From an uncultured Candidatus Saccharibacteria bacterium (GTDB taxonomy: Bacteria > Patescibacteriota > Minisyncoccia > UBA6257 > CAYRSR01): 64,000 bases of DNA. Where the stretch lies: NCBI GenBank assembly GCA_964427275.1, contig CAYRSR010000001.1:20394-84393 (forward strand), read 5' to 3'. Under the pieces are notes generated by a model. That model saw nothing but the letters and a program-made list of their open reading frames with translations, did no database searches and was not told the DNA's origin. Shown here one piece after another: positions 15,552 through 64,000 of this stretch (position 1 is its first letter; every line of letters begins with the position of its first letter). A program made the position numbers and the translations under genes.

Positions 15552-16760
15552 TTAGAACTGGGTAGCCATCTGATAAATTGGAACGATAATAGAAATAGCA
15601 ATAAATCCAATAATTAGTCCCATAACTAAAAGTAAAATTGGCTCAAGTATCGTAACCAAATCTTTAAGAGCTTTATCTACTTCTTTTCTATAAAAGTCCG
15701 CCAAGGTTTGCAGAGTTGTTTCAATGTTGCCAGTTTTTTCAGCAATACTAATTAAATTAACCACTGTTCTGGGGAAAAATGGCTCTCTTGAAAATGCATC
15801 AGATATAGTCCAGCCCTTAGCTAATCTTTCTCTAGAAATTCTGATTAAAGCATCTTTTAGTCTCTGATTTCCAACTACTTCGGCAGTAATTTCAACCGCG
15901 CGCGGAAAATCTATTCCGGCTTCAATTAAAGATGCTAAGGTGGAGGCAAATCTTTGAATAGCCATTTTTTCAGTCAAATTTCTAACTATTTTTATTTTGG
16001 TAAATAAATCAAAAAGTAATCTGCGAACTACTATAAAATTACGATATAAAATGAACAGTAATAATAAACCTCCTATCCCTAATGATAATATTGTCCAGAT
16101 ATGTTCAGCAATAAATCCACCTACAGTAAAAACCATCTTAGAAAAAGCTGGCGGTTCAAATCCAGTACCTTCAAACACCGAAGCAATTTTGGGTAGCGCA
16201 AAGGTAGTTAAAAAGGTTACCACAACACCAGACATTATTAATAGAAAAACTGGATAAATTAGAGCTGATCTAACTCGGCCTTTAAAATCCCTGGTTGTTT
16301 CTAAAGAAGTTGACAAGCGATCAAACACCACTTCCAGATTACCTGAAGCTTCTCCGGCTTTAATTAAATTAACAAAAACCGGGTCAAAAAACTGAGGATA
16401 TTTTGCGAAAGTAAAAGACATTGACCGTCCCTGTTCAAGGTCATATCTCAATTCCATTAAAAAGTTTCGAAGTCCTGGCTTTTCATAGTCAGTAATCAAA
16501 ATTTTAACAGTCCTGAATAAATCTGTCCCACTTCTCAGCATTAAAGATATATACCTAGTTAGAAAGATTTTATCATTGATACCAATTAGTGGAGCAAAAA
16601 ATCTTCTTCCTCGAAGTACCACTCTCCTTTTTGGTTTAATTGTAATTGGAGTTAAACCTTTTGCAGCTAACTCTTCTAAGGCTTCTTTGATATCTGTGGC
16701 AGATATTTCTCCTTCACTAACTTCTCCAGTTGGTAAAGCTGCAGTATATTTAAAACGCAT
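15552..16760 (-). CDS. pilC: type IV pilus assembly platform protein PilC (GspF family)
   Basis: 402-aa inner-membrane protein with duplicated T2SS-F domains. Confidence 0.85.
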   Translation of the reverse strand: MRFKYTAALPTGEVSEGEISATDIKEALEELAAKGLTPITIKPKRRVVLRGRRFFAPLIGINDKIFLTRYISLMLRSGTDLFRTVKILITDYEKPGLRNFLMELRYDLEQGRSMSFTFAKYPQFFDPVFVNLIKAGEASGNLEVVFDRLSTSLETTRDFKGRVRSALIYPVFLLIMSGVVVTFLTTFALPKIASVFEGTGFEPPAFSKMVFTVGGFIAEHIWTILSLGIGGLLLLFILYRNFIVVRRLLFDLFTKIKIVRNLTEKMAIQRFASTLASLIEAGIDFPRAVEITAEVVGNQRLKDALIRISRERLAKGWTISDAFSREPFFPRTVVNLISIAEKTGNIETTLQTLADFYRKEVDKALKDLVTILEPILLLVMGLIIGFIAISIIVPIYQMATQF

Positions 16761-16906
16761 AATGTAAATTTAAAATGTAAAAATCAAAATGTAAAATGAC
16801 GATTTAAAATTCAAAATAGATAAATATTAAAATGATTTTGAAATTTGCTAATTTTAACATTTTGCATTGTAATTTTAATTTTTGATTTTTTAATTTTAAA
16901 TTTATA
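16761..16906. repeat. AT-rich imperfect palindromic intergenic element related to the AAAATGTAAAAATCAAAATG motif
   Basis: Left arm TAAATTTAAAATGTAAAAATCAAAATG and right arm CATTTTGCATTGTAATTTTAATTTTTGATTTTTTAATTTTAAATTTA are largely reverse complements. The motif recurs at 12373, 13785, 50875 and 59490. Confidence 0.4.
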
Positions 16907-18625
16907 TTACCTGGCTACTCTCAAAACCTCTTCTATGGTGGTAATTCCTCTTTCTACTTTCAATAAACCATCCTCAAACATTGTTGTCATCCCCTTGCTT
17001 CTACTTAGTTCCTTTAAGGCATCTAAGGAAAAATCTGGAAGTGTAATCATATCTCTAATATCTTTGGTTACATCTAAAACCTCAAAAATGGCAGTTCTTC
17101 CAGAATATCCAGTAAAGTTACATCCAGGACATCCTCTGCCTCGGTAAAGAGTCTTTGGTATACGCACTTCACTAGGATCTATCCCTAACACTCTTAGCTG
17201 CTCTTTTATAGCTGATATAGTACCCTTATCTGGCTTATATGACTCAATACAGGGCTTATGAATTGTTCGAACCAATCTTTGAGCTACTACTGCATTTAAA
17301 ACCGCAGCTACCAAATAAGCTGGAATGCCCATATCAATTAACCTTGGAATTGCAGTAGGTGCATCGCTGGTATGAAGTGAGGATAGAATTAGATGTCCGG
17401 TTAAAGCTGAATGAACTGCAATTTCAGCAGTTTCTCTATCTCGAATTTCACCAACCATAATAATGTCGGGGTCTTGACGCAGAATAGCCCTTAAGCCATT
17501 AGCAAAAGTAATTCCAGCTTTAGGATTTATCTGAGTTTGATTCAAATAAGAAATATTATATTCCACCGGATCTTCAATAGTAACAATATTTACACCAGGT
17601 TGATTTAATAAATTCAAAATTGAATAAAGGGTAGTGGTTTTTCCAGAGCCAGTAGGCCCACATACTAAAATCATTCCATAAGTTTTAGCAATATTCTTTT
17701 TAACTAATTTTATGGTATCCCTTAACATTCCCAGTTCTTCAAAGGAAAAAGGTTTTTGAGTCGCAGCTAGCAACCTAATCGCAATTTTTTCTCCAAAAAA
17801 AGTAGGCATTACCGATACTCGCATATCTACCGCCCCTGTTTCAGTCTTGTATCTAAACCGTCCATCCTGAGGCCTGGAATGTTCATCAATTGCAAGCCCG
17901 GATAGTAGTTTAATTCTAGCCACTATTGCCGGATGAATTTGCTTGGGTAGTCTAATCATTTCATAAAGAATTCCGTCAATTCTAAACCTTACCAGTAAGC
18001 AATCTTCTAAAATTTCTAGATGAATATCAGAGGCCGAAAGCGAAGCAGCATAACTTATCAGATTATCAACTATAGCAGCAATTGGAACCATGGTAGCTAT
18101 TTCTTTTAACTTCTTTTCGGCTTTGGTTCCAGCTCGTAAAGCTTCAGCTACACTTTCTTCAATCATCTTCCTGAAGCTTAATGCAGTTTTTCTCTGATAT
18201 AAAGAAAAAGCCCAATTTAAATCCTCATCAGAGACTAAAACTGGATGAACTTTAGCTTTTAAATATTTTTCTAAAAATTCAATAATTTCTAGATTAGTAG
18301 GGTCCTCCATTCCTATATCCAGAGTTCCATCTTTTTCTCGATTAAATACACAAACTTTATATTCTTGAGCTAAGTCCTGAGGAAGAAGATAAAATGCATC
18401 TTCCTGAATTCCCACATTTTTAAGTTTTACCCTTTCCACTTTCAGAATATCTGATAACAGGTCATAGTAATAATCCAAAGTAAGATAACCTTGAGCTGCT
18501 AGAGCTTCGACTATATTCTGTCTTTTTCGCTTGGCTCTTTCAACCATCGCATCAAATTCTTCAGTGGTAATTAGTCCTTTATCAATCAATATTTGCTTCA
18601 GCTTTTTTAAAGGAAGAATTAACAT
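16907..18625 (-). CDS. pilB: type IV pilus assembly ATPase PilB (GspE family)
   Basis: Walker A GPTGSGKTTT and GSPII_E N-terminal domain. 572 aa. Confidence 0.9.
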   Translation of the reverse strand: MLILPLKKLKQILIDKGLITTEEFDAMVERAKRKRQNIVEALAAQGYLTLDYYYDLLSDILKVERVKLKNVGIQEDAFYLLPQDLAQEYKVCVFNREKDGTLDIGMEDPTNLEIIEFLEKYLKAKVHPVLVSDEDLNWAFSLYQRKTALSFRKMIEESVAEALRAGTKAEKKLKEIATMVPIAAIVDNLISYAASLSASDIHLEILEDCLLVRFRIDGILYEMIRLPKQIHPAIVARIKLLSGLAIDEHSRPQDGRFRYKTETGAVDMRVSVMPTFFGEKIAIRLLAATQKPFSFEELGMLRDTIKLVKKNIAKTYGMILVCGPTGSGKTTTLYSILNLLNQPGVNIVTIEDPVEYNISYLNQTQINPKAGITFANGLRAILRQDPDIIMVGEIRDRETAEIAVHSALTGHLILSSLHTSDAPTAIPRLIDMGIPAYLVAAVLNAVVAQRLVRTIHKPCIESYKPDKGTISAIKEQLRVLGIDPSEVRIPKTLYRGRGCPGCNFTGYSGRTAIFEVLDVTKDIRDMITLPDFSLDALKELSRSKGMTTMFEDGLLKVERGITTIEEVLRVAR

Positions 18626-19292: not shown

Positions 19293-19889
19293 CTAAATCA
19301 AATCCAATCCGGGGTCAGAACCAATTTCGTAAATATTAGAATTATCTCCTCCATCCTTGCCTTCCAGGTCGCTATACTTGGTGCTCTCCATATTGCAGTT
19401 CAACTCAAAAGTCAGGGTAGAAGAAGAACAACCAAAGATGTAATAAAAGCCACCATCAACCCCTTCACCATTACTGCTATCATCATTAACTGGATCTAAT
19501 GGTAAAGATGATAAAGGAGAACCGGCAGGAATATCATTTAGATTAATTGCTACCCAGCCGGTACCATCAGTGGTAATATCATTATCAGCAGCGCAAGTTG
19601 CAGACGTGAATCCACCATCAGTATCATCCTTCGCGTAAACATTACCACTTCCAGTTTTCCCAGTACATTTACAGGCAGATTCTCCAGATTTGGGCATTTG
19701 CGGATTAGACACTGATACTAGATACAAACTTAAAGCTGATTGAATACTCTTTAAATCAGACATTCTCTGAGAGTCTCTGGCTTCCTTGAGCATCTGAGCT
19801 GGATTCATTACTACCGCTATCGTGGTTGCTATAATTGCCAGAATTGCAATAACTATCAATAGCTCAATTAAAGTAAATCCCCTCTTCAT
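19293..19889 (-). CDS. type IV major pilin (PilA-like)
   Basis: Canonical prepilin N-terminus MKRG-FTLIELLIVIAILAII with Glu+5. The ATG at 19889 is preferred over the upstream GTG at 19901. Confidence 0.85.
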   Translation of the reverse strand: MKRGFTLIELLIVIAILAIIATTIAVVMNPAQMLKEARDSQRMSDLKSIQSALSLYLVSVSNPQMPKSGESACKCTGKTGSGNVYAKDDTDGGFTSATCAADNDITTDGTGWVAINLNDIPAGSPLSSLPLDPVNDDSSNGEGVDGGFYYIFGCSSSTLTFELNCNMESTKYSDLEGKDGGDNSNIYEIGSDPGLDLI

Positions 19890-19983
19890 CCTTTTTGTCA
19901 CTTTTTTCGACCTTTGTTATTATTGTAAAACAAATAATTACAAGAATCAATTGGGAATTTGTTTTTAAAAAAATTACAAGGAT

Positions 19984-38148: not shown

Positions 38149-38163
38149 ATCAACTTAAATTCT

Positions 38164-40846: not shown

Positions 40847-40852
40847 AAGTCT

Positions 40853-44276: not shown

Positions 44277-44281
44277 AATAA

Positions 44282-53902: not shown

Positions 53903-53934
<32 letters not shown>

Positions 53935-54175
53935 CTCCAATGTCCTTGAAGGAAGCCTCACCTTTCGGTAAGGTTTCATTGGAGTGTCAAGCCCTGGTGA
54001 GGTTCTTCGGTTATTGACGAATTAAGCCTCATGCTCCACCGCTTGTGCGAGTCCCCGTCTATTCCTTTGAGTTTTAACCTTGCGGTCGTACTCCCCAGGC
54101 GGTCTGCTTAACGCGTTAGCTACGCCACCCAGAGGGTCGATACTCTAGACAGCAAGCAGACATCGTTTAGGGCCT

Positions 54176-54209
<34 letters not shown>

Positions 54210-54441
54210 AGGCTTTCGGGTCTCAGAGTCAGGAGAGCCCCAGCTATTTGCCTTCGCCTTTGGTATTCCGCACGATATCAACGGATTTCACCCCTACACC
54301 GTGCGTTCTAAAAGCCTCTGGCTCCCTCTAGTTCGGTAGTTTCCGAGGCATTTCCCTGGTTGGGCCAGGGGCTTTAACCTCAGACTTACCGAACCTCCTA
54401 CACCCGCTTTACGCCCAGTAAATCCGGATAACGCTTAGGGT

Positions 54442-54476
<35 letters not shown>

Positions 54477-54889
54477 AACCCTTTATTCTCCACTTACCAT
54501 CAACATCTACTAAAAGGTAGATGCTTTTTCAGTGGAAAAAGCGGTTTACACTCCGCAGAGCTTCATCCCGCACGCGGCGTCGCTGGATCAGGCTTTCGCC
54601 CATTGTCCAAAATTCTCGACTGCTGCCTCCCGTAGGAGTAGGGCCCGTGTCTCAGTGCCCTTGTTGGAGAACAACCTCTCAGTCCTCCTACCCGTCATAG
54701 CCAAGGTGAGCCATTACCCCACCTTCTAGCTGATAGGCCGCAGGCCATTCCCATTCCGGCATACCATAAGATACACCTTTAATGACATCACTAAAAGTGT
54801 GTCATACTATCGGGTATTAGCCACCTTTTCAGATGGTTATCCCCGTGAATGGGGTATGTACCTACGTGTTACTAACCCGTTTGCCGCTC

Positions 54890-55210
54890 CCAGCCCCACT
54901 TTTTGGATTCAAATAAAGCATTTCTTAATTCTCTTGAAAAGTTCCTGTTTTGCACTCCCATAATGTTTTAATCTCTTTTCTCTTCTCTTCGCATCTTTTT
55001 TATTTCTATAAGCTTCGGCATAAATTAAAACCCACTTTCCATCTCTTCGGTAAGTGGCTTTTGTTTTTCCTTGATTATGATCTGTCAACCTCTTTTGAAG
55101 ATTTTTAGTTAAACCAATGTAAACTTGTTTTGTGACATTATGCTGAATTAGATAAACATACCACCACATAACCTTATTATGACTATTGAATCCAAAAAGT
55201 GAGGCTGGGC
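54890..55210 (-). other. intervening/insertion sequence within 16S helix 6, closed by a 23-bp stem and carrying an endonuclease ORF
   Basis: The exon sequence GCATGCAAGTCGTGCGC is interrupted by CCAGCCTCACTTTTTGGATTCAA...[ORF]...TTGAATCCAAAAAGTGGGGCTGG and then resumes at GAGCGGCAAACGGGTTAGTAACACGTAGG. The flanks are reverse complements, allowing one U-G. Confidence 0.6.
54909..55169 (-). CDS. GIY-YIG nuclease-superfamily protein (homing-endonuclease-like) encoded inside the 16S insertion
   Basis: YVYLIQHNVTKQVYIGLTKNLQKRLTDHNQGKTKATYRRDGKWVLIYAEAY matches the GIY-(x10)-YIG...R...E core. The ATG at 55169 has an AAGG SD. The ORF-track 5' extension to 55223 lies in the stem. Confidence 0.7.
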   Translation of the reverse strand: MWWYVYLIQHNVTKQVYIGLTKNLQKRLTDHNQGKTKATYRRDGKWVLIYAEAYRNKKDAKRREKRLKHYGSAKQELFKRIKKCFI

Positions 55211-55330
55211 GCACGACTTGCATGCCTTATCCACGCCGCCAGCGTTCATCCTGAGCCAAGATCAAACTCTCGTTTTGGGCAACCAAAAAAGAATTCAACC
55301 TGTTTAACTTTTAAAGGTACAACCACGTTA

Positions 55331-56029: not shown

Positions 56030-56626
56030 TCAATTGTGGCTAATCTTTCTTTGAATAGCTTTAAGATATACTACCAGCATTAATCCCCAGCAAAAAATTA
56101 TAAGTTCAGTTGATGCATTTTGTATCAATGATAGCACTACTAGAATTAATACTCCTACTGCACCTCCAGCAGCCGGAGCAGTAGTTCTTAGTATTGATGG
56201 AACCATTTTTCTAAGAAACCTGGAGTAAATTAATCCAAAAATAACTGCTACTCCCAGAGATAATCCAGTTAGTTTGGGAACTAAAACTAAACCAGTTCCT
56301 ATTGAAGTTGCTAGTCCTCCACCTCCTTTAAACTTAAAAAATACCGGCCAGTTGTGACCGGCTACACAAAACAAAGCCCCTGCAACTATTACACTTAAAT
56401 TTAGATTCAAAAATTTACCTAAAAGTACTATCAGACTTCCCTTTAAAGCATCAAATAATCCAACCAAAATTCCAAGTATAATTGAATTGGTTTGCCTTGT
56501 AGTTCCAGCTGCTCCGGGTAAGTCAACTTTAGCAAAATCTTTAAGCTTTAAAGCTCTAGCTAAGATATATCCCCCCAAAATAGAACCTACTAGATAGCTT
56601 ATTAAGATATATAAAACTCCAGGCAT
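56030..56626 (-). CDS. plsY: glycerol-3-phosphate acyltransferase PlsY (acyl-phosphate dependent)
   Basis: GHNWPVFFKFKGGGGLATSIG and upstream SGN-like motifs. 198 aa, polytopic. Confidence 0.8.
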   Translation of the reverse strand: MPGVLYILISYLVGSILGGYILARALKLKDFAKVDLPGAAGTTRQTNSIILGILVGLFDALKGSLIVLLGKFLNLNLSVIVAGALFCVAGHNWPVFFKFKGGGGLATSIGTGLVLVPKLTGLSLGVAVIFGLIYSRFLRKMVPSILRTTAPAAGGAVGVLILVVLSLIQNASTELIIFCWGLMLVVYLKAIQRKISHN

Positions 56627-56627
56627 T

Positions 56628-57488
56628 TTACATTATTGTATATCCTATTCCCCAGGCTTTAGGTCCCATGTAGCAGGTAGCAGTACAGCCAATTTCTCCT
56701 TTAATTATTTCAATGTTTTTAAAATTTTGTTTCAGAAGATTTTCTAAATCCTGACTGGCTGGCTGATTATCAATTTCTCCAATCATTGAGATTATAAATT
56801 TACCATTTTTTTCTTTTAAATCCCTTTTAATCTGTTCAACCATTATTTCATTGGCTTGTCTAATTGTTCTAGCTTTACCAAGCGGGCTAACTATTCCTTC
56901 CTGATTTCTAAAGCCAACCAGAGGAATTATTTTAATCAGTGAACCAATTAAAACTTTTGCTTTGCCAATTCGACCTCCTTGATAAAGATACTCCAAATCA
57001 GGTAAAGCTAGAATAGAATTAGTCCGGCTAACAATTTTTTCAGCTTCAGTAAAAATTTCTGAGTCAGTTTTACCTGATTCAACTAGCCGGGCAATTTCTA
57101 TAACAATTAAATCCTTGCCCAGACCAGCTTGTCTTGTATCAATGATTCTTATCTTTGTTTCAGGAAAGTCTTTAATTGCCTGTTTTATGTTTAGATAAGT
57201 AGCCTTGGTTAATTCTTTTGACATTAAAACCAGTAAAATCTGATAGTTCTGCCAGAGGTCCTTAAAAATTCTTGATAGGTCAGCTACACCCGGAGCAGAA
57301 GTTTTAGGAAAACCCCTTTTTTCTTTCAGGTCTCTTAGGAAAACTTCTCTGCTAGTATTGCTTTCCAGGTACTCTTTTCCAGCAAAGTAAATAGGACAAT
57401 TAAAAAGCCTTATATCATATTTTTTTACCAGTTCCTTCGATAAGGCATGTCCATTATCAGTAACAATTTTAATTTTCATTACATTCAT
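56628..57488 (-). CDS. DegV-family fatty-acid-binding protein (FakB-like)
   Basis: N-terminal MKIKIVTDNGHAL...LF and overall DegV length (286 aa). Confidence 0.8.
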   Translation of the reverse strand: MNVMKIKIVTDNGHALSKELVKKYDIRLFNCPIYFAGKEYLESNTSREVFLRDLKEKRGFPKTSAPGVADLSRIFKDLWQNYQILLVLMSKELTKATYLNIKQAIKDFPETKIRIIDTRQAGLGKDLIVIEIARLVESGKTDSEIFTEAEKIVSRTNSILALPDLEYLYQGGRIGKAKVLIGSLIKIIPLVGFRNQEGIVSPLGKARTIRQANEIMVEQIKRDLKEKNGKFIISMIGEIDNQPASQDLENLLKQNFKNIEIIKGEIGCTATCYMGPKAWGIGYTIM

Positions 57489-57490
57489 AA

Positions 57491-59119
57491 TTATTCACAG
57501 GATATTATATAAAAATAATGAGGCTGACCACCAGAGTAAATTTGAACTTCCAGGTCAGGATATTTTGATTTTATAATTTTAGCTAATCTTTCAGCTTCCT
57601 TTTTTGTAACCATTTTACCATAATATAGAGAAAGAAGATGAGAATCTTTTTCTACCATCTTTTCAATTAATTTAATAGTAACTTCATTTAGATCCTCTCC
57701 AGCAACTTCTAGCTTCTCTTCACAAAAACCAAGCTTATCCCCTTTCTTTAAAATACTTTGCTGAAAACTTCTTTCTTCCAGAGAATAGGTAACCAATCCT
57801 GATTTTACTCTTTTTAAAGCCTGGTTCATTGCCATTAAATTTTGTTCTAGATTGTTGTGAGAATTAAAAGATAAGAGAGCTGAAATTCCCTGGGGAATAG
57901 TTTTTGAAGAAACAATATAAACTTTGAACCCACTTAATTTTTCAATTTCTTTTGCAGTAACTAAAACATTTTCATTATTTGGAAGAATAATGACTTCCTC
58001 AGCTTTAGTTTTTTTAATTGCTTTATCTAGATCTCTTACACTTGGATTCATAACATATCTTCCGGTAATTACCACATCTGCACCAAGATTTTTAAAAATT
58101 CTAGTTAATCCGCTTCCCAAAGTTACAGCCACAATACCAATTTTCTTTTCCTTATCCTTTTTTGCCAGAGTGGCTCGTCTTCTAATCATTTTCTCCATGT
58201 CATCTATCTTTTCAGATTTAATTTTCCCCAAGCCAGATAAAAGCTGATGTATTTTTTTGGGATAATTGGTATGAATGTGAATTTTAAACAAATTTCCCGA
58301 CTTAGAAGTGATTAAAGAACTTCCATACTGTTTTAGCTTTTCTTTAATTTCTTCAAATTTTGATTCAGAAGTAGAAATAACTGATTCAAAACAATACTTA
58401 TTTACCAATTCCTCGGTCTTGTATCTAAGTTCTCTTAAAAACTTTGGCAAAAGAGTTGCTTCAGAAACTACTTTTAAAAGAGTTTTTGGCTTTTTATTTA
58501 AATAAGCAGTTATTGCCTCAAGTATAAAAACAAATCCCTGACCACCAGCATCTACTACTCCAGCTTCTTTAAGAACTGGTAAAAGCTCTGGAGTTTCAGC
58601 TAAAGTTTTTTGAGCTTGCTTTAAAGCCTCCGAAAAAATTTTACCTAAATCGTTTTCTTTTTTAGCCAGTTGACTAATTTTTTTAGCAACCTCTCTCATA
58701 ACTGTAAGAATTGTTCCTTCAACCGGCTTTTCTACTGCCCGGTAAGCAGATTGGGCTCCTTTCTCAAATGCTAAACCTAAATCTTTGACAGATAGATATT
58801 CTTTGCCCTGGCAAGCCTCTGAAAATCCTTTTAACCATTGAGACAAAATATTACCTGAACAACCCCGAGCCTCCATTAAACTGGCCCGAGCAATAAGCTG
58901 AGTTGTTTGAGAAAAATCTAACTGAACATTCTTTAATGCTTTAACTGCCCCTTTTAAGGTTAAAGACATATTTATTCCAGTGTCACCATCGGGAACTGGA
59001 AAAACATTAAGCCGGTTTAAAATCTCTTTATTTTTATCCACCCAATCACTGGCAGCTAAAATCAGTTCCTTCAACTGGCTAGCATCTATTTTTCTAACTT
59101 TGGTCATTTCCTGGTTCAT
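57491..59119 (-). CDS. DAK2-domain fusion protein YloV (FakA-like fatty acid kinase catalytic subunit)
   Basis: N-terminal Dak2 domain (VPDGDTGINMSLTLKGAV), central and C-terminal YloV-type domains. 542 aa. Confidence 0.8.
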   Translation of the reverse strand: MNQEMTKVRKIDASQLKELILAASDWVDKNKEILNRLNVFPVPDGDTGINMSLTLKGAVKALKNVQLDFSQTTQLIARASLMEARGCSGNILSQWLKGFSEACQGKEYLSVKDLGLAFEKGAQSAYRAVEKPVEGTILTVMREVAKKISQLAKKENDLGKIFSEALKQAQKTLAETPELLPVLKEAGVVDAGGQGFVFILEAITAYLNKKPKTLLKVVSEATLLPKFLRELRYKTEELVNKYCFESVISTSESKFEEIKEKLKQYGSSLITSKSGNLFKIHIHTNYPKKIHQLLSGLGKIKSEKIDDMEKMIRRRATLAKKDKEKKIGIVAVTLGSGLTRIFKNLGADVVITGRYVMNPSVRDLDKAIKKTKAEEVIILPNNENVLVTAKEIEKLSGFKVYIVSSKTIPQGISALLSFNSHNNLEQNLMAMNQALKRVKSGLVTYSLEERSFQQSILKKGDKLGFCEEKLEVAGEDLNEVTIKLIEKMVEKDSHLLSLYYGKMVTKKEAERLAKIIKSKYPDLEVQIYSGGQPHYFYIISCE

Positions 59120-59395: not shown

Positions 59396-59440
59396 AAAAA
59401 AATTACGTAAAAAATTACGTAATTTTTTACGTAATTTTTT
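59396..59440. promoter_or_regulatory. 45-bp perfect palindrome containing three TTACGTAA boxes at 12-bp spacing
   Basis: AAAAAAATTACGTAAAAAATTACGTAATTTTTTACGTAATTTTTT, with boxes at 59403, 59415 and 59427. Confidence 0.5.
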
Positions 59441-59455
59441 GAATTCTTTTAAAAA

Positions 59456-59482
59456 TATAAGGACTTCGCAAGTCCTTATATT
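59456..59482 (-). terminator. rho-independent terminator downstream of the giant pilin-like gene
   Basis: ATATAAGGACT-tcgca-AGTCCTTATAT (11-bp perfect stem) followed on the minus strand by TTTTTAAAAG. Confidence 0.6.
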
Positions 59483-59547
59483 CAGTAAATTAAAAATGTA
59501 AAAATCAAAATGATTTAATCTACAAAGGAGAATATCTTAATATTTGC

Positions 59548-61503
59548 TTATCTAGTTACTTTCTCCAGTAAAAATTTGTAAATTTCACCAGTTTTTTGAT
59601 TTTCTAAATATAATCCACTTTCATCTTCAAACATCCGCCAGAGAATTTGTCGAGTTTTCTGATCTCTAAAAGTAATGTCTCCTACATCAAAAGCAGCTGC
59701 TTGAATTTTTCCTTCTACATCAAGTTTGTACCCGGTTGCCGGATTTGTTGTCCCAATACCAACGTTGCCACTTGGATCAATTGTTAGATCTGCAACATCA
59801 TCACCGGCACTAAAGGAGAGATCAAGATCCGTCCCTACAGCACCAGTCCTTATCAACACATTCGGTTCAGTTCCTCCAGCTGTCAATACAAAATCAAGTG
59901 CCTTTAGTTCACCTGATGTGTTTTCAGCGATTGCAGATAAAACATATTGAGAAGTGTCCTGTTGACTTCCTTGTACAACCAATTTTGCTCTATCTGGACT
60001 CGTTGTTCCAATGCCAACATTACCGTCATCTTTAATAAACAAGCCTTCTACACCTCCAGATCTAAAAAATCGAAAGCCTCCCCAGTATCTATCTCGCCCC
60101 ATAACCCATTCCTCAGTTGTCCCTTCATTAAAGCCAATCCAGACATCACCACCATCTGGATCAGTCAACCTGAGCTTCCTTTTTGTATTACTTGATTCAC
60201 TAATTTCAAGCTTTGCTCCTGGACTGATTGTTCCGATGCCGACGTTGCCGTCAAAAGTAACTACCAGCTTCCCGCCTCCAGCATCCAGTAATCCGGCCGG
60301 GTTGATTGTTCCGATGCCGACACCGCCTAAGGAATTTACTACAAATCTGCTTGTTGCATCGTTGGAATCTGCTCTTAAAATAGGCTGCTGATAAGAATAA
60401 GAAGTTCCCTCTGGCAAATCAGTAGAAAATGCAGAATCTACAGTTAATGAGGTTTGAGATTCAATTGAAACTATGGTTTTGTATTCATTTCCAGTCCCAG
60501 GGTCGGCAATTAAAATATCTCCTACATTTAATTCGGTTTGGAAGCTGGTGTTATTTCCGGTAACTGTAATATCTGATGAAGAAATTGTTCCGGTTCCGGA
60601 TTGAGCTGCTGTTCCTTTGATATGCAGAACAGAAATTGGTTCAGTCGTTCCAATACCGGTATTTCCAGATGATAATACTATAAATTTTCCTCCGCCAATA
60701 TCTAATAAACCTGAAGGATTCTTAGTTCCTATTCCTACTTTCTTTTGCTTGGTAATTACAAATGGAGGTTCAAGTTCACCAATTCCAGAATGAGGCTCAA
60801 TTTTAAATTTATTTAAATCATCTACATCTACTCCAACAGTAAACTGGTCAGTTGCACCAGCATCAAAAATTAGAGCGGAATCTTCTCCGGTTGGACTAGA
60901 AATTTCTAAATTAGTAAATACACCCTTATCCCAGCGGGAAGCAGAATTCCCTACCGAAAACCAATCATCCTGGTTTGGAATTAAATCTGAATCAAAAGTA
61001 GCAGCTGAAACTTTTCCAATTGCAGTAGTCAAAGTTCTACTAATCTGCATTAAAGGAGAAGGAGAATTATAAGTTAAAGTAATATTTAATTCTACAATTG
61101 CTTTTCCGCCCGGATTTTCATATTTAGTGACCTCAAAATTATCTACTTTTACCCGAGTAGTAGTTAATGAGGTCTTATCCGCAGTTCCCTGCTTTAGATA
61201 AACTGCATTATTATCAGCTGAAATTATAGTTGGGTCAATAGCTGAGTTTCTCATTCTCAGTATTAATTCAGCTGAAGTTTCACCAGGTTTATTTTCAATT
61301 AAACTTGATTGACGAACCAGCCGTTGAATAGTATCCTGCACAAACCGCAATTGAGTAGTAACTTCCGAGCCAGCAGTCAGTCTTTGATGAGCCCTGGTAA
61401 TGCTTAAAAGAATAGCAGTAAAAATGCCTGAAGCAACAGCAAAAATAGCAATATAAATTAACAGCTCCATCAATGTATATCCCTTAAATTTAGATGAAAT
61501 CAT
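59548..61503 (-). CDS. giant pilin-like protein (class III signal peptide + repetitive beta-helix-like C-terminal region)
   Basis: MISSKFKG-YTLMELLIYIAIFAV prepilin N-terminus with Glu+5. Body contains recurring G(N/G)VGIGT(T/I)(N/S/E)P...LLD(A/I)GGGK motifs, at least 5 times. 651 aa. Confidence 0.65.
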   Translation of the reverse strand: MISSKFKGYTLMELLIYIAIFAVASGIFTAILLSITRAHQRLTAGSEVTTQLRFVQDTIQRLVRQSSLIENKPGETSAELILRMRNSAIDPTIISADNNAVYLKQGTADKTSLTTTRVKVDNFEVTKYENPGGKAIVELNITLTYNSPSPLMQISRTLTTAIGKVSAATFDSDLIPNQDDWFSVGNSASRWDKGVFTNLEISSPTGEDSALIFDAGATDQFTVGVDVDDLNKFKIEPHSGIGELEPPFVITKQKKVGIGTKNPSGLLDIGGGKFIVLSSGNTGIGTTEPISVLHIKGTAAQSGTGTISSSDITVTGNNTSFQTELNVGDILIADPGTGNEYKTIVSIESQTSLTVDSAFSTDLPEGTSYSYQQPILRADSNDATSRFVVNSLGGVGIGTINPAGLLDAGGGKLVVTFDGNVGIGTISPGAKLEISESSNTKRKLRLTDPDGGDVWIGFNEGTTEEWVMGRDRYWGGFRFFRSGGVEGLFIKDDGNVGIGTTSPDRAKLVVQGSQQDTSQYVLSAIAENTSGELKALDFVLTAGGTEPNVLIRTGAVGTDLDLSFSAGDDVADLTIDPSGNVGIGTTNPATGYKLDVEGKIQAAAFDVGDITFRDQKTRQILWRMFEDESGLYLENQKTGEIYKFLLEKVTR

Positions 61504-61652
61504 ATTTTAATAATTATATCTTACTCTAGAAAAATTGCAATTATTTGTATAAGATGAGTACATTTTTGATAACTAAATGTCTTCACTTGAAATTTAATGC
61601 ATCTAAATGACTTATATCTTTTTTAAATTAATTTTGGTAAAATAGTATTAAG

Positions 61653-63092
61653 ATGATTTCAATTAAAGACTTCAAAAAAATTAATCCCTGGCTCTGGGAG
61701 ATTCCCAAAAACTTTAGAAAGGATATGAGAGTTCCGGCTAGAATTTATGCATCAGAGAAGCTTTGCAAGGATATTTTCAGAGACCAATCAATTTCCCAGC
61801 TAATCAATACCTCTACTCTACCTGGAATTGTTAAATACGCTATGGCTATGCCAGATATACATGAAGGTTATGGATTTCCAATCGGTGGAGTAGTGGCCAC
61901 TAGAACCTCCGACGGAGTAATTTCTCCTGGAGGAATTGGCTTTGATATTAATTGTGGAGTAAGGTTACTAAAATCAGACTTTACTGCTGAAGAAATAAAA
62001 CCTTATTTAGATAAGTTAGCTCAAGAAATTCAACAGGCAGTTCCTTCAGGTTTGGGTAGAGCTAGAAAAACCAAAATTAGCTTGATCGACTTAAACAAAG
62101 TTTTAAAATATGGAGTTAAAAGTTTACTTGAAAATGGCTATGGAGAAAAAGAAGATTTCGAAAATTGCGAAGCAAATGGAAGCTTAAATTTAGCTGAACC
62201 AGATTTAGTTTCCAATCATGCCAAAGAAAGAGGCAGAAACCAGCTTGGTACTCTTGGTTCAGGAAATCATTTTCTGGAAATTCAGCAAGTAGTTCAAATT
62301 TATGACCAGAAAATAGCTGAAGTTTTTGGGTTGTATTTAAACCAGATAGTAATAATGCTTCATACCGGCTCCAGGGGTTTAGGGCATCAGGTTTGTACCG
62401 ACTACCTAAAAGTAATGAGAAGAGCAGTAGATAAATATAGGATTACTTTACCAGACCGAGAACTTTGTTGCGCTCCATTTAATTCTCCAGAAGGAAGAAA
62501 TTATTTCCGGGCAATGTGTGCAGCAGCAAACTTTGGCTTTTCGAATCGTCAGATGATTACCTACTATGTTCGAAAAGTTTGGAAAAAAGTTTTTGGTAGT
62601 AGAAATCTTAAGCTTTTATATGGAGTAGCTCATAACATTGCTAAAATTGAAAAATATCAGGTTAATGGAAAAACTGAAGAATTATGCGTTCATCGAAAAG
62701 GAGCCACTCGAGCTTTTCCACCAGGAAGTCCGGAAATTCCTGAAAAATACCGAGAAGTTGGCCAGCCAGTATTAATTCCTGGTTCAATGGGAACTTCTTC
62801 ATATGTTTTAGCTGGTACCAAATCTGGAGAACAAGCCTGGTACTCAACCTGTCATGGTTCAGGAAGAACTATGTCCAGGCACCAGGCAATTAAGAGATTT
62901 CCTGGTCGAGAAGTGATAGAAAATTTACAGGCAAAAGGAATCATTGTAAAATACCAGGGATATCGTGGGATAGCCGAAGAAGCACCTGGTGCTTACAAAG
63001 ATGTTGATAAAGTAGTTGAAACAGTTCATCAAAGTGGACTTTCCAGAAAAGTTGCTAAACTCAAGCCACTAGCAGTAATCAAGGGAGAATAA
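61653..63092 (+). CDS. rtcB: RNA-splicing ligase RtcB
   Basis: Metal-binding motifs: MPDIHEGYGFPIGG, GIGFDINCGVR, GSGNHF, and the C-terminal His cluster. 479 aa. Confidence 0.9.
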   Translation: MISIKDFKKINPWLWEIPKNFRKDMRVPARIYASEKLCKDIFRDQSISQLINTSTLPGIVKYAMAMPDIHEGYGFPIGGVVATRTSDGVISPGGIGFDINCGVRLLKSDFTAEEIKPYLDKLAQEIQQAVPSGLGRARKTKISLIDLNKVLKYGVKSLLENGYGEKEDFENCEANGSLNLAEPDLVSNHAKERGRNQLGTLGSGNHFLEIQQVVQIYDQKIAEVFGLYLNQIVIMLHTGSRGLGHQVCTDYLKVMRRAVDKYRITLPDRELCCAPFNSPEGRNYFRAMCAAANFGFSNRQMITYYVRKVWKKVFGSRNLKLLYGVAHNIAKIEKYQVNGKTEELCVHRKGATRAFPPGSPEIPEKYREVGQPVLIPGSMGTSSYVLAGTKSGEQAWYSTCHGSGRTMSRHQAIKRFPGREVIENLQAKGIIVKYQGYRGIAEEAPGAYKDVDKVVETVHQSGLSRKVAKLKPLAVIKGE

Positions 63093-63130
63093 TTAAGTCA
63101 GTAAGATTAGTTAAAGGCTTATGAAAAAGA

Positions 63131-63292
63131 AGATGCCCAAGTCTTTAAGAAAATTTATTCGCAGAAAAAAAGCTGAAATTAGAAGAAAGTTTTTAGATCC
63201 AGAAAAGGCTCAGCAAGAAATTAAAAAATTTTTAGAAACTCTAAAAACTAAAAAAAATAACTTATGCTCGAACAAAAGCTAAAACATGCAAT
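63131..63292 (+). CDS. small basic ORF (about 53 aa), hypothetical
   Basis: ATG 63131 gives MKKKMPKSLRKFIRRKKAEIRRKFLDPEKAQQEIKKFLETLKTKKNNL... It overlaps the start of the next gene in another frame and is not in the ORF track (below the size cut-off). Confidence 0.25.
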
Positions 63293-63824
63293 CTGCATAT
63301 CCGGAACAGCTGATCTAGATGTTTGCAGTGAAGAAACTAAACAAAAAGCTTTTAAAATTGGTAAGGAAATTGCCAAACGAGATTTAATTTTACTTACTGG
63401 GGCTACCACTGGAATTCCTTATCTGGCAGCTCAAGGAGCTAAAAAAGCTGGAGGAATAGTATTTGGCTTCTCTCCAGCTGCCTCAAAGGTCAGTCACTTA
63501 AAAACCTATCATTTACCGATAACTTATCATGATGTAATTGTCTACACTGGATTTGGTTATTCTGGAAGAAATTTATTTTTAATTCGGGCTGCTGACGGAA
63601 TAATCATAATTAACGGAAGAATGGGAACATTAAACGAATTTACCATTGCTTTCGAAGACAAAAAACCAATAGGAGTTTTAACTGGAAGCGGAGGTACAGC
63701 TGATAAGATTGAAAAGATAGTTAAGGAAGCTCACCGGGGTCCAGGAAAAATTGTATACGATTCCAATCCATCCAAACTCCTGGATAAATTAATTAAACAA
63801 ATTGAAGAAGAAGAAAAGCTATAA
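63264..63824 (+). CDS. Rossmann-fold nucleotide-binding protein (TIGR00725/LOG-like family)
   Basis: 186 aa with the pattern AICISGTAD...LLTGATTGIPYLAAQGAKKAGG...IIINGRMGTLNE, typical of SLOG/LOG-like proteins. Confidence 0.45.
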   Translation: MLEQKLKHAICISGTADLDVCSEETKQKAFKIGKEIAKRDLILLTGATTGIPYLAAQGAKKAGGIVFGFSPAASKVSHLKTYHLPITYHDVIVYTGFGYSGRNLFLIRAADGIIIINGRMGTLNEFTIAFEDKKPIGVLTGSGGTADKIEKIVKEAHRGPGKIVYDSNPSKLLDKLIKQIEEEEKL

Positions 63825-64000
63825 CATCTGATGAAATTCATTAATAGCTTGAATTAATTCTTTAAAACTGGTGTTAGTAATATTTAGCTGATTTTCAAAT
63901 TGATAAGCAGATATTGATTTAAATGACTTAAATTTTATTTGTAAAATCTGACGTTTAAACTTTTTGCTTTTATTTTCAGCTTCAAATTTAAGTTTTTCAA
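63819..64000 (-). CDS. hypothetical protein, C-terminal fragment (gene runs off window end)
   Basis: Minus-strand frame is open from position 64000 to the TAG at 63819-63821 (...FKELIQAINEFHQML*). Confidence 0.3.
   Translation of the reverse strand, partial: EKLKFEAENKSKKFKRQILQIKFKSFKSISAYQFENQLNITNTSFKELIQAINEFHQML

What the first reader, a model, noticed from the sequence alone, without database searches (positions are those of the whole stretch)
59548..61503. 651-aa protein with a genuine prepilin N-terminus and a repetitive GIGT-motif body: candidate pilus-tip adhesin or fibre
A class III signal (KG|YTLMELLIYIAIF, Glu+5) is fused to a long C-terminal region. That region is full of recurring G-N-V-G-I-G-T-T-x-P...L-L-D-x-G-G-G-K segments, at least 5 times. 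These are reminiscent of beta-helical fibre repeats from phage tail fibres or adhesins. Pilins this large are rare. In episymbiotic CPR bacteria, type IV pili are thought to mediate host attachment, so this is a candidate host-binding pilin. It is followed by a strong terminator.
Basis: partly seen in the sequence, partly recalled or inferred. Interest (0 to 1): 0.6.

Follow-up and report, generated by a model that had tools for sequence, protein, structure and literature searches.

The report
Pilin fused to swappable tail-fibre
A tiny symbiotic (CPR/Patescibacteria) bacterium encodes a type IV pilin whose outer two-thirds resemble a phage tail fibre. The end piece of that fibre differs between two nearly identical strains, so it is a good candidate for the part of the pilus that recognises the host cell.

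Summary
ORF 59548-61503 (minus strand, 651 aa) starts with a canonical prepilin signal (MISSKFKG|YTLME, Glu+5; Pfam N_methyl above its cut-off). It carries six V/T-G-I-G-T motifs, against 0.12 expected by chance. AlphaFold2 models aa 10-165 confidently as a long helix plus a beta-sheet.

This N-module defines a large Patescibacteria family: 525 cluster representatives at E<=1e-30, and it is always N-terminal. It carries varied C-terminal modules, including GIGT fibres, Peptidase_S74, LamG, Collar and discoidin.

The body is homologous to phage tail fibres (PHROG 1.4e-18) and to the trimeric beta-helix 'MAT' fibres of Bdellovibrio (PDB 8OND). In those fibres the GIGT motif is the capping loop.

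The only close allele is 98% identical in DNA up to codon ~487. Its distal cassette is different and ends in an S74 self-cleaving chaperone. This window's allele ends instead in an undescribed, highly conserved about 55-aa cap (WRMFEDE-GLYLEN).

Best reading: a homotrimeric, pilus-tip, tail-fibre-like adhesin with an exchangeable tip. Architecture and homology are shown. Trimer state, tip location and host binding are inferred.

Modular pilins, including N_methyl+S74, are already catalogued, so this is a new variant of a known kind. The gene lies 41 kb from PilB/PilC, and no prepilin peptidase is in the window.

The parts
59548..61503 (-). Whole gene: a 651-aa modular prepilin (pilin N-module, neck, tail-fibre-like body, cap).
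   Evidence: ORF list. An identical protein, P0001, is on a 96-kb NCBI/JGI/ENA contig.
61513..61540 (-). Sigma-70-like promoter match (TTGCAA, 16-nt spacer, TATAAT). The -10 element ends 9 nt before the ATG and there is no Shine-Dalgarno sequence.
   Evidence: Consensus scan, 10 of 12 positions, and the sequence itself. This is a consensus match only.
61480..61503 (-). Class III leader peptide MISSKFKG (aa 1-8). The predicted prepilin-peptidase cut is after Gly8.
   Evidence: Pfam N_methyl matches aa 4-27 above its cut-off. Gly-1 is at least 90% conserved and Glu+5 is invariant across the family.
61309..61473 (-). Alpha-1 helix (aa 11-65), including the hydrophobic N-terminal half that packs in the filament core.
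   Evidence: AlphaFold2 helix 11-65 with pLDDT 87-98 in two independent runs.
61009..61308 (-). Beta-sheet head of the pilin N-module (aa 66-165).
   Evidence: AlphaFold2 strands 66-165 with pLDDT above 90. No significant match to solved pilins.
60913..61008 (-). Conserved neck, VSAATFDSDLIPNQDDWFSVGNSASRWDKGVF (aa 166-197). Invariant residues are A168, F170, D171, P176, G185 and W191.
   Evidence: Alignments A2 and A3. pLDDT is about 47-55 in the monomer models. Its function is unexplained.
60043..60912 (-). Proximal fibre body (aa 198-487). It carries GIGT capping-loop motifs 1-4 (aa 257, 283, 396, 422) and an internal duplication (aa 248-300 resembles 387-440; aa 199-258 resembles 444-498).
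   Evidence: Motif positions. Self-similarity appears in the BLASTP output. phmmer hit to 8OND Bd2133 over aa 262-440. Against the sister allele there are 8 nonsynonymous and 5 synonymous differences.
60379..60609 (-). Inserted small domain (aa 299-375) that resembles the N-terminus of phage tail-fibre proteins.
   Evidence: phrog_1980 'tail fiber protein' 6.4e-07 and phrog_17834, both matching aa 302-370. The same segment is found in non-pilin fibre proteins.
59521..60042 (-). Strain-variable distal cassette (codon ~488 to 28 nt past the stop). It contains GIGT motifs 5 and 6. In the sister allele on L001 an unrelated 701-nt cassette ending in Peptidase_S74 takes its place.
   Evidence: blastn finds 98% identity over 64000..60001, then none until 59520..59447. 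The codon comparison puts the breakpoint at codon ~487/488.
59551..59712 (-). C-terminal cap domain (aa 598-651): GKIQAAAFDVGDITFRDQKTRQILWRMFEDESGLYLENQKTGEIYKFLLEKVTR.
   Evidence: AlphaFold2 predicts four strands with pLDDT about 89-93. It is 50-79% identical to the C-termini of 33 short proteins from other bacteria. The cap proper has no Pfam or PDB match.
59449..59482 (-). Intrinsic-terminator-like hairpin with a T-run, conserved in the sister strain.
   Evidence: Inverted repeat I5, 13-nt arms, 100% complementary. Fold energy -15.4 kcal/mol. Conserved downstream of the different cassette in L001.
15552..18625 (-). Context: type IV pilus assembly ATPase PilB (16907-18625) and platform protein PilC (15552-16760), 41 kb away.
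   Evidence: Pfam T2SSE 2.5e-118 with MshEN, and T2SSF 1.8e-52.
19293..19901 (-). Context: a 202-aa prepilin, a candidate major pilin, next to PilB. A paralog lies at 52388-52939 and a further prepilin-like ORF at 15077-15610.
   Evidence: Pfam N_methyl 2.7e-09 and 3e-08. Motif scan.

Best explanation
The gene encodes a modular type IV (minor) pilin. A prepilin peptidase would remove the 8-residue leader. The hydrophobic alpha-1 helix and small beta-sheet head (aa 9-165) form a 'carrier' pilin module that the PilB/PilC machinery can load into a pilus.

From a conserved neck (aa 166-197) the chain continues as a fibre made of beta-helix segments bounded by GNVGIGTTxP 'capping loops'. This fibre is homologous to phage tail fibres, to endosialidase stalks and to the trimeric MAT fibres of Bdellovibrio.

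That fibre type is an intertwined homotrimer. Three copies would therefore have to come together, and the most economical arrangement is a homotrimeric cap on the pilus tip with the fibre projecting along the axis. The trimeric minor pilin CofB of type IVb pili is a precedent.

The last about 55 residues form an uncleaved, highly conserved cap. It takes the position that the self-cleaving S74 chaperone holds in the sister allele, and it probably nucleates trimer folding from the C-terminus. The distal cassette (aa ~488-651) is exchanged between strains by recombination, as in phage receptor-binding proteins, which points to a role in recognising a variable host-cell surface structure.

Shown: the signal motif, the confident helix-plus-sheet model of the N-module, the family distribution, the homology of the body, the cassette swap and the cap conservation. 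Inferred: trimer state, tip position, folding role of the cap and host binding.
For: Pilin module:
- Pfam N_methyl is above its cut-off.
- AlphaFold2 gives helix 11-65 plus a sheet to residue 165 with pLDDT above 90.
- PilB, PilC and three other prepilins are in the window.

Carrier family:
- The N-module profile finds 525 representatives at E<=1e-30. The module is N-terminal in all 150 listed, and protein lengths run from 157 to 1150 aa.
- At least 348 loci were found in species-representative genomes. The best 80 are nearly all Patescibacteria.
- C-terminal modules include GIGT fibres (75 of 130), S74 (14 of 130), LamG, Collar, discoidin, Kelch and dockerin.
- PilB lies within 8 kb in 12 of 80 loci.

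Fibre:
- PHROG tail-fibre families score 1.4e-18, 1.6e-11 and 6.4e-07.
- phmmer hits 8OND Bd2133 at 0.0026.
- A profile containing the last repeat hits five MAT crystal structures, down to 1.8e-13.
- MAT fibres are intertwined trimers with V-G-G/N-pi-x-x-P-x-x-x-L capping loops and either S74 or non-S74 tips (PMC10769870).
- tblastn hits cyanophage and pelagiphage tail fibres and 'chaperone of endosialidase' genes.

Tip swap:
- The alleles are 98% identical in DNA up to codon ~487. The cassettes are unrelated, and identity resumes 28 nt after the stop, including the terminator.
- The fibre body has 8 nonsynonymous and 5 synonymous changes, against 8 and 35 in the neighbouring RtcB (Fisher p=0.005). 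The pilin module has 0 and 5.

Cap:
- pLDDT is about 90.
- W-R-M-F-E and G-L-Y are invariant across 34 sequences, and some members continue into coiled coils.

Precedents:
- Modular pilins are thought to sit at the pilus tip, and CofB forms a trimer (PMC8179133).
- The Saccharibacteria minor pilin PilX2, which has an accessory domain, is needed for efficient host binding (PMC11623550).
Against: - Foldseek against the PDB found no solved pilin, or anything else significant, for the N-module (best E 0.05). Apart from the N-terminal helix, the pilin fold rests on the predicted secondary-structure order only, because model coordinates were not inspected.
- The fibre body was modelled with pLDDT below 50 as a monomer, so its beta-helical trimeric fold is not confirmed for this protein.
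- No prepilin peptidase is present in the 64-kb window.
- The gene is solitary and 41 kb from PilB/PilC. Family members rarely sit beside other pilin genes (1 of 80).
- Only two alleles exist in the searched data, so 'tip swapping' rests on a single comparison. The metagenome scan found no further alleles.
- The cap is too conserved across phyla to be a specificity determinant itself.
- No experiment links this family to pili or to host binding.
Confidence: 0.55

Rival explanations
1. Cell-surface fibre, not a pilus component. The class III signal serves only for export and anchoring. After cleavage, the three hydrophobic alpha-1 helices of a trimer stay in the cytoplasmic membrane, or form a stub pseudopilus, and the fibre projects directly from the cell surface like a MAT fibre.
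For: The gene is solitary and far from the pilus genes. In this protein the pilin module occupies the position that an invariant N-terminal surface-anchoring domain holds in Bdellovibrio MATs. Three alpha-1 helices per trimer are awkward to fit into a one-start pilus helix. The head has no detectable fold match to solved pilins.
Against: The N-module keeps the full pilin layout (Gly-1, Glu+5, a 55-residue helix, a beta head) under strong purifying selection, with 0 nonsynonymous and 5 synonymous changes. In 12 of 80 genomes the family gene lies just upstream of pilB/pilC. CPR cells are covered by an envelope layer, which a fibre of roughly 450 residues on a membrane anchor may not clear.
Confidence: 0.2
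2. Tailspike-like enzyme carried on a pilin. The beta-helix body is a polysaccharide depolymerase or glycosidase, as in endosialidase or the P22 tailspike, and it digests the host capsule or wall rather than merely adhering.
For: The body is homologous to the S74-associated beta-helix class, which includes endosialidases. The MAT paper notes P22-like surface clefts. Raynaud et al. read the N_methyl+S74 architecture as a 'peptidase'.
Against: There is no hit to any glycosidase, lyase or catalytic family in Pfam or NCBIfam. The S74 domain is a folding chaperone, not an effector, and this allele lacks it. The beta-helix segments are short stalk-type repeats.
Confidence: 0.1
3. Shaft-decorating or pilus-bundling minor pilin. 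Monomers insert along the filament, and fibres trimerise between pili or between cells, driving aggregation rather than specific host recognition.
For: Raynaud et al. do not exclude a body location for modular pilins when the linker is flexible. The neck has low predicted order.
Against: A 450-residue appendage on a shaft subunit would clash sterically. Fibres of this class fold as intertwined trimers from the C-terminus, which favours co-assembly of three neighbouring chains before polymerisation.
Confidence: 0.08
4. Prophage or phage-derived tail-fibre gene with an N-terminus that looks like a pilin by chance.
For: The PHROG tail-fibre hits and weak phage tblastn hits.
Against: There are no phage genes around it. 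The neighbours are RtcB, a SLOG protein, FakA, DegV and PlsY, and the synteny is the same in the sister strain. Neither the N-module nor the cap was found in 2.9 million viral contigs. The N-module forms a family of at least 525 representatives that is always N-terminal and carries N_methyl.
Confidence: 0.03

Closest known systems
Modular type IV pilins (Raynaud et al. 2021, PMC8179133). Examples are S. sanguinis PilB (pilin + vWA) and PilC (pilin + lectin). The paper's InterPro survey lists IPR012902-IPR030392 (N_methyl + Peptidase S74).
   Same: An N-terminal class III signal and small pilin module with a functional module grafted onto the C-terminus. The predicted location is the tip and the predicted role is adhesion. 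The sister allele P0002 and about 11% of the family have exactly the N_methyl+S74 architecture.
   Different: The grafted module here is a long, repeat-built, presumably homotrimeric fibre, not a globular monomeric domain. The survey read S74 as a peptidase activity, not as the chaperone of a tail-fibre-like shaft. This allele has no S74 and ends in an undescribed cap. The N-module is a distinct Patescibacteria family with a conserved neck motif.
Bdellovibrio bacteriovorus MAT (mosaic adhesive trimer) fibres (Caulton et al. 2024, PMC10769870; PDB 8OND, 8OML, 8OJN, 8ON4, 8OL4).
   Same: Sequence-level homology of the beta-helix repeats and capping loops. Both have S74 and non-S74 tip classes and mosaic 'tip swapping'. 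Both belong to a bacterium that must recognise other bacteria.
   Different: MATs have a Sec signal and an invariant beta-rich N-terminal anchor of about 130 aa. Here a prepilin module takes that place. MATs are about 1,000 aa and this protein is 651 aa. The cap domain is not among the solved MAT tips.
CofB / TcpB, the homotrimeric minor pilins at the tip of type IVb pili in ETEC and V. cholerae (as summarised in PMC8179133; TcpB is from my own knowledge).
   Same: A pilin module followed by a linker and beta-rich C-terminal domains that trimerise. The trimer is proposed to cap the pilus and to mediate binding.
   Different: No sequence relationship was detected. Those are T4b systems of diderm pathogens. 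Their C-terminal domains are not S74-type beta-helix fibres. The trimer state of this protein is inferred, not shown.
Phage tail fibres and tailspikes with a C-terminal Peptidase_S74 intramolecular chaperone (K1F endosialidase, T5 pb1).
   Same: Homologous repeat and capping-loop architecture. The sister allele has the SDxxxK S74 domain. Distal receptor-binding parts are exchanged as cassettes.
   Different: This is encoded in a cellular, non-prophage context and attached to a pilin instead of a virion-binding N-terminus. This allele ends in an uncleaved cap.
PilV shufflon adhesins of IncI-type conjugative plasmid thin pili (e.g. TP114, PMC9045228; the mechanism is from my own knowledge).
   Same: A minor pilin whose C-terminal segment varies and sets partner-cell specificity.
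   Different: Shufflons switch by site-specific inversion (Rci) among silent cassettes in the same locus. Here the 64-kb window holds no alternative GIGT-coding cassette. The variation is between strains.
Saccharibacteria TM7x minor pilins PilX1 and PilX2 (PMC11623550).
   Same: CPR minor pilins with C-terminal accessory domains proposed as tip adhesins. PilX2 is needed for efficient host binding.
   Different: Their accessory domains are a beta-jelly-roll and a beta-propeller, not a tail-fibre-like shaft. They are encoded within pilus loci. Homology to this N-module was not tested.

Membership tests
Type IV pilin (class III signal peptide, Pfam N_methyl / IPR012902) | A short basic leader ending in Gly, a hydrophobic residue at +1, Glu at +5, then about 20 hydrophobic residues. 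| tested here: met
   MISSKFKG|YTLMELLIYIAIFAVASGIF. N_methyl scores 23.3 bits against a cut-off of 21.2. TIGR02532 falls just below its cut-off, 14.3 against 16.3. Gly-1 is at least 90% conserved and Glu+5 is invariant in the family.
Type IV pilin | An extended N-terminal alpha-1 helix of about 50 residues followed by an antiparallel beta-sheet head (the pilin 'lollipop' layout; packing of sheet against helix could not be inspected). | tested here: met
   AlphaFold2 gives helix 11-65 and strands 66-165 with pLDDT above 90 in two runs. This is a predicted secondary-structure order, not a solved structure, and the 3D packing was not examined.
Type IV pilin | The head domain is structurally similar to solved pilins or pseudopilins. 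| tested here: inconclusive
Type IV pilin | The genome encodes a prepilin peptidase (Peptidase_A24) and an assembly ATPase and platform protein. | tested here: inconclusive
   PilB and PilC are present in the window. No A24 peptidase was found among the window ORFs scanned. The rest of the genome could not be reached.
Type IV pilin | The protein is cleaved, N-methylated and polymerised into a filament. | not testable with these tools
   This needs proteomics of sheared pili or cryo-ET.
Modular pilin (in the sense of Raynaud et al. 2021) | An N-terminal pilin module joined by a linker to a module that also occurs outside pilus biology. | tested here: met
   The fibre repeats, the aa 299-375 insert and the cap all occur in proteins without a pilin motif. 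The N-module occurs with many other C-terminal modules.
MAT / S74-class trimeric beta-helix fibre (tail-fibre-like) | Recurrent capping-loop motif (V-G-x-G-T-x-x-P-x-x-x-L) bounding beta-helix segments. | tested here: met
   Six copies, and none of 20,000 shuffles reached that number. The motif aligns with the SGNLGLGTAAPTSALHV and GNVGIGATAPTAKLEV loops of 8OND.
MAT / S74-class trimeric beta-helix fibre | Significant sequence homology to characterised members. | tested here: met
   phrog_9942 at 1.4e-18 and phrog_18345 at 1.6e-11. 8OND at E 0.0026 from the single sequence. A profile that includes this protein's last repeat hits 8OND at 1.8e-13, 8OML at 1e-09, and also 8OJN, 8ON4 and 8OL4.
MAT / S74-class trimeric beta-helix fibre | An intertwined homotrimeric beta-helix fold. 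| tested here: inconclusive
   Only a monomer prediction was possible, and the body has pLDDT below 50. No multimer tool was available.
MAT / S74-class trimeric beta-helix fibre | A C-terminal Peptidase_S74 self-cleaving chaperone (S74 subclass). | tested here: not met
   This protein has no PF13884 hit. The sister allele P0002 has one, with the SDLRLK motif. This allele therefore falls in the 'non-S74' class.
Bdellovibrio MAT family proper | A Sec signal followed by the invariant beta-rich N-terminal domain of about 130 aa. | tested here: not met
   The N-terminus is a prepilin module instead. The protein is a relative of the fibre shaft, not a member of the MAT family as defined in PMC10769870.
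Shufflon-type variable pilin (PilV) | Alternative C-terminal cassettes in the same locus, flanked by inverted recombination sites and accompanied by a recombinase. | tested here: not met
   In the six-frame translation of the window, the GIGT motifs occur only in this gene, apart from one isolated GVGT match in another frame at 41883. No recombinase family other than RecA appeared among the Pfam results for the window ORFs scanned. The repeats in the 3' intergenic region are a terminator and an AT-rich palindrome.

The most novel reading that the evidence does not exclude
Patescibacteria may carry phage-style receptor-binding fibres on type IV pilus tips. In this reading a homotrimer of a dedicated 'carrier' pilin caps the pilus and extends a tail-fibre-like shaft. 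The distal cassette of that shaft is exchanged between strains and with non-pilin fibre genes, so episymbionts would choose hosts by the same modular logic as phages and Bdellovibrio. The WRMFEDE-GLYLEN cap would be a new, uncleaved alternative to the S74 chaperone as a C-terminal trimerisation nucleus.
Probability: 0.35. Interest if true: 0.75.

Novelty: new variant of a known kind. Interest (0 to 1): 0.6.

Why it matters
How ultrasmall CPR episymbionts find and hold the right host cell is largely unknown. Type IV pili are implicated, but the specificity determinant has not been identified. A pilin that carries a phage-like, cassette-swappable fibre is a concrete and testable candidate, because alleles can be compared with host range in metagenomes and the fibre can be expressed and tested for binding.

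The finding also links three literatures: modular pilins, phage receptor-binding proteins and the MAT fibres of predatory bacteria. It reinterprets the catalogued 'pilin + S74 peptidase' architecture as a pilin-borne trimeric fibre. It also flags an undescribed, widely conserved C-terminal cap domain.

Tried and rejected
- The monomer AlphaFold2 model of the fibre body was low-confidence, so it neither confirms nor refutes a repetitive fold.
- A metagenome-contig scan for further alleles of aa 1-501 found none. An exact-sequence look-up of P0001 found no contig on record, so the rest of the genome, including any PilD, could not be inspected.
- Scans of viral contigs for the cap and for the N-module found nothing. 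This counts against a phage origin for these two modules.
- The consensus terminator scanner missed the hairpin. Repeat finding and folding detected it.
- I looked for the neck motif (D..L.P....G....W) in non-pilin fibre proteins. There was no match to the full pattern and one loose match, in P0115, so its origin stays unexplained.
- My first 'cap' probe included the GNVGIGTT motif and over-called cap domains. A strict probe (aa 598-651) showed that no other N-module protein in hand carries the cap.
- I first placed the 5' recombination breakpoint at the end of GNVGIGTT motif 5, from the BLAST boundary. The codon comparison moved it upstream to about codon 487/488, because the motif is encoded by different codons in the two alleles.
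- A prophage origin was rejected because the neighbouring genes are housekeeping genes with conserved synteny.
Full report
**1. The observation**

The ORF lies on the minus strand at 59548-61503 and encodes 651 aa. Its N-terminus is MISSKFKG|YTLMELLIYIAIFAVASG. This has the defining prepilin features: a short basic leader ending in Gly, an aromatic residue at +1, Glu at +5 and about 20 hydrophobic residues. Pfam N_methyl matches aa 4-27 above its gathering score, 23.3 against 21.2 bits. NCBIfam gives only sub-threshold, helix-limited hits to minor pilins and pseudopilins such as ComGF, XpsH, GspH and GspJ.

The motif G[IV]GT occurs six times, at aa 257, 283, 396, 422, 497 and 582. Composition-preserving shuffles give a mean of 0.12 and never more than 3 in 20,000 trials. 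The six-frame translation of the window holds only one other match to the looser pattern G[IVL]GT, an isolated GVGT at 41883.

A 13-bp perfect hairpin with a T-run lies 66 nt downstream of the stop codon. A sigma-70-like promoter match ends 9 nt before the ATG. The gene looks monocistronic. It sits between a divergent RtcB gene and a FakA/DegV/PlsY operon.

**2. Organism and pilus context**

The window has 29-43% G+C per 2-kb window, about 33% on average. Its 16S rRNA gene is 1815 nt long, and a GIY-YIG endonuclease ORF lies inside it. The RecA protein is 63-72% identical to RecA proteins of Colwellbacteria, Harrisonbacteria, Wolfebacteria and Paceibacterota. The organism is therefore a Parcubacteria-type member of the CPR/Patescibacteria.

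The window contains PilB (T2SSE with MshEN) and PilC (T2SSF). It also holds three further prepilin-like ORFs, at 15077-15610, 19293-19901 and 52388-52939. These lie 7-41 kb from the gene of interest. No Peptidase_A24 was found among the window ORFs scanned.

**3. Anatomy**

AlphaFold2 with a 101-sequence alignment models two regions confidently. The first is aa 10-165, a 55-residue helix followed by seven strands, with pLDDT 92-98. The second is aa 605-645, four strands, with pLDDT about 90. The regions in between (aa 166-600) fall mostly below pLDDT 60. A separate run on aa 1-200 reproduced the N-module.

The helix-then-sheet order is that of a pilin, but Foldseek found no significant solved relative. 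The fold assignment therefore rests on the signal motif and the predicted secondary-structure order.

Between the head and the fibre lies a neck, aa 166-197 (VSAATFD..P..G..W). Six of its residues are invariant in every family member, yet it is predicted to be disordered in the monomer. I cannot explain it. It may become ordered on oligomerisation.

**4. The N-module is a family-wide carrier**

About 52 of the first 120 homologues share only aa 1-195, and nearly all of these show the prepilin motif. Downstream they carry different modules: LamG, Peptidase_S74, a glycine-rich domain, fn3, a beta-helix and others.

An exhaustive HMMER search with the N-module profile finds 525 cluster representatives at E<=1e-30 and 1938 at 1e-10. 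In all 150 listed hits the module is at the N-terminus of proteins of 157-1150 aa.

In one genome per species, at least 348 loci encode the module. The best 80 are almost all from Patescibacteria. Of the 74 complete genes among them:
- 44 are short (up to 320 aa), and 38 of these end in a Cys...Cys loop.
- 30 are long.
- Of 29 long ones scanned against Pfam, 26 have N_methyl, 3 have S74, and one each has a phage tail Collar, Kelch, F5/8-type-C or dockerin domain.

Of 130 further representatives, 75 have at least two GxGT motifs after the module and 14 have S74. Large pilins are therefore not rare in this lineage, and pilin plus GIGT fibre is a common architecture.

PilB lies within 8 kb in 12 of 80 loci. 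Another pilin gene lies within 5 kb in only 1 of 80.

**5. The body is a tail-fibre / MAT-type fibre**

- PHROG tail-fibre families match at 1.4e-18 (aa 484-611), 1.6e-11 and 6.4e-07 (aa 302-370).
- tblastn finds cyanophage and pelagiphage tail-fibre and 'chaperone of endosialidase' genes at 24-31% identity.
- Against PDB sequences the best hits are Bdellovibrio Bd2133 (8OND, E 0.0026) and 8OJN.
- A profile of the last repeat plus cap hits five MAT structures, with 8OND at 1.8e-13 and 8OML at 1e-09, and marginally MyRF. All matches run through the GNVGIGT and beta-helix part.

Caulton et al. showed that these fibres are intertwined homotrimers. The V-G-x-...-P-...-L motif forms 'capping loops' at the edges of beta-helix segments. 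Tips are either S74 chaperone domains or unrelated non-S74 domains, and the authors proposed 'tip swapping' (PMC10769870). By homology the fibre here should also be a trimer. This is inferred, because only a monomer could be modelled.

**6. A swapped distal cassette**

The only close relative, P0002, comes from JGI metagenome 3300017593 and has the same RtcB/SLOG neighbourhood. Its DNA is 98% identical from window position 64000 down to about 60042. There is then no similarity until 59520, and identity returns at 95% across the terminator.

Codon comparison puts the 5' junction at codon ~487/488. From there the shared GNVGIGTT peptide is encoded by different codons.

The sister cassette is 701 nt. 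It ends in a Peptidase_S74 domain with the SDLRLK cleavage motif. The cassette in this window is 522 nt (window 59521-60042) and ends in the cap.

Upstream of the junction, differences between the two alleles are distributed as follows:

| Region | Nonsynonymous | Synonymous |
|---|---|---|
| Pilin module (aa 1-200) | 0 | 5 |
| Fibre body (aa 201-487) | 8 | 5 |
| RtcB (neighbouring gene) | 8 | 35 |

The fibre body differs significantly from RtcB (Fisher p=0.005). The carrier is thus conserved, the shaft evolves fast, and the tip is replaced wholesale. This is the pattern seen in phage receptor-binding proteins. It rests on one pair of alleles, because a metagenome scan found no more.

**7. The cap**

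The cap sequence is GDITFRDQKTRQILWRMFEDESGLYLENQKTGEIYKF. The last about 75 residues are 50-79% identical to the C-termini of 33 short proteins (78-245 aa), most with signal peptides or membrane anchors. The few that carry names come from lineages such as Thiomargarita and Anaerolineales.

W-R-M-F-E and G-L-Y are invariant, and several members continue into coiled coils. The cap proper has no Pfam or PDB match. It was not found in 2.9 million viral contigs. No other N-module protein that I inspected has it. This supports acquisition from a non-pilin fibre gene.

Such strong conservation argues for a structural role rather than a specificity role. I infer that it acts as an uncleaved trimerisation or folding nucleus in the position that S74 otherwise holds.

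**8. Mechanism proposed**

1. PilD-type processing removes the leader peptide.
2. Three chains are zipped from the C-terminal cap into an intertwined fibre.
3. Their three pilin modules form the first layer of a PilB/PilC-assembled pilus, so the fibre sits at the tip.
4. The distal beta-helix segment and cap contact a host surface structure.

Steps 1 to 4 are inference, supported by precedent. Modular pilins are thought to be tip-exposed, and CofB forms a trimer (PMC8179133). In Saccharibacteria, the minor pilin PilX2, which carries an accessory domain, is needed for efficient host binding (PMC11623550).

The rivals are listed with their tests: a membrane-anchored surface fibre that uses the class III signal only for export, a tailspike-like enzyme, a shaft-decorating pilin, and a prophage gene. 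The first is the serious one, given the gene's solitary position and the lack of a fold match to pilins.

**9. Comparison and novelty**

Raynaud et al. already catalogued more than 1,200 modular pilins. They listed N_methyl+S74 among the common architectures and read it as a peptidase. MAT fibres are described in Bdellovibrio, with a different anchor.

Literature searches found no paper combining Patescibacteria, pilin and tail fibre in this sense. This is only a search of the held library.

I file the protein as a modular type IV pilin. Its signal-motif and secondary-structure features are met, its fold match is inconclusive, and its polymerisation is untested. The grafted module belongs to the S74-class/MAT-like fibre superfamily. 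It is not a member of the Bdellovibrio MAT family proper, because the N-terminal domain is not met. It is not S74-bearing in this allele.

It is a new variant of a known kind. Three things appear to be new:
- The recognition that a large Patescibacteria pilin family carries tail-fibre-like trimeric shafts.
- The documented cassette swap.
- The undescribed cap domain.

Noticed in passing
window 53463-55277 (-), ORF 54909-55223 (-): The 16S rRNA gene spans 1815 nt against a 1533-position model. It contains a 104-aa ORF with a GIY-YIG endonuclease domain (6.9e-18). This looks like an insertion or intron encoding a homing endonuclease, as often seen in CPR rRNA genes. No 23S gene follows within the window.
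   Followed up: partly
window 59397-59440: A perfect 44-nt palindrome made of three TTACGTAA units spaced 12 nt apart (AAAAAATTACGTAAAAAATTACGTAATTTTTTACGTAATTTTTT). It lies between the pilin-fibre terminator and the fakA-like gene. It could be an operator or a second AU-rich terminator.
   Followed up: no
window 19293-19901 (-) and 52388-52939 (-): Two prepilins of 202 and 183 aa share an essentially identical N-terminal stretch of about 35 residues (GFTLIELLIVIAILAI.ATTIAVVMNPAQMLK). They are likely major-pilin paralogs. The second sits beside a stand-alone response-regulator receiver gene (53010-53387).
   Followed up: partly
window 15077-15610 (-): A 177-aa ORF overlapping the start of PilC has a prepilin-like motif (MRGVTLTELLISISILV) but no Pfam hit. 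It is probably a minor pilin. The neighbouring ORFs 13942-15123 (393 aa) and 18648-19208 (186 aa) have no Pfam hit at all.
   Followed up: no
window 19984-23154 (-): A 1056-aa protein with PKD, lamin-tail (LTD) and fn3 domains lies directly upstream of the pilin/PilB/PilC cluster. It may be another surface adhesin linked to the pilus locus.
   Followed up: no
window 27742-45331 (-), ORF 43364-43753: A surface-polysaccharide cluster of about 17 kb: Wzz-like protein, sugar transferase, glycosyltransferases, UDP-GlcNAc 2-epimerase, an ABC-2 exporter, DegT aminotransferase and dehydrogenases/epimerases. A '23S rRNA-intervening-sequence protein' gene is embedded in it.
   Followed up: no
window 59551-59712 (-); proteins P0121-P0153: The WRMFEDE-GLYLEN cap is an undescribed C-terminal domain with no Pfam or PDB match. 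It is found on small GIGT-fibre proteins from many bacteria. Some of these have an N-terminal TTYYP.P.G.Y motif after a signal peptide, and others have coiled-coil tails after the cap.
   Followed up: partly
window 60913-61008 (-); loci L004-L081: The neck motif SAATFD..P..G..W is invariant across the whole pilin family, including the short members (233-300 aa) that end in a Cys...Cys loop instead of a fibre. It is predicted to be disordered in monomer models. Its role is unexplained.
   Followed up: partly
window 61504-61540 (-): The promoter-like -10 TATAAT ends 9 nt before the ATG, and there is no Shine-Dalgarno sequence. The mRNA may be leaderless or nearly so.
   Followed up: no
window 56030-59119 (-): A FakA-like gene (DAK2 domain), a DegV (FakB-like) gene and a PlsY gene lie in a row. 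This would be a fatty-acid kinase and acyl-phosphate route for using exogenous, host-derived fatty acids. That fits a symbiont lacking fatty-acid synthesis, which I did not check here.
   Followed up: no
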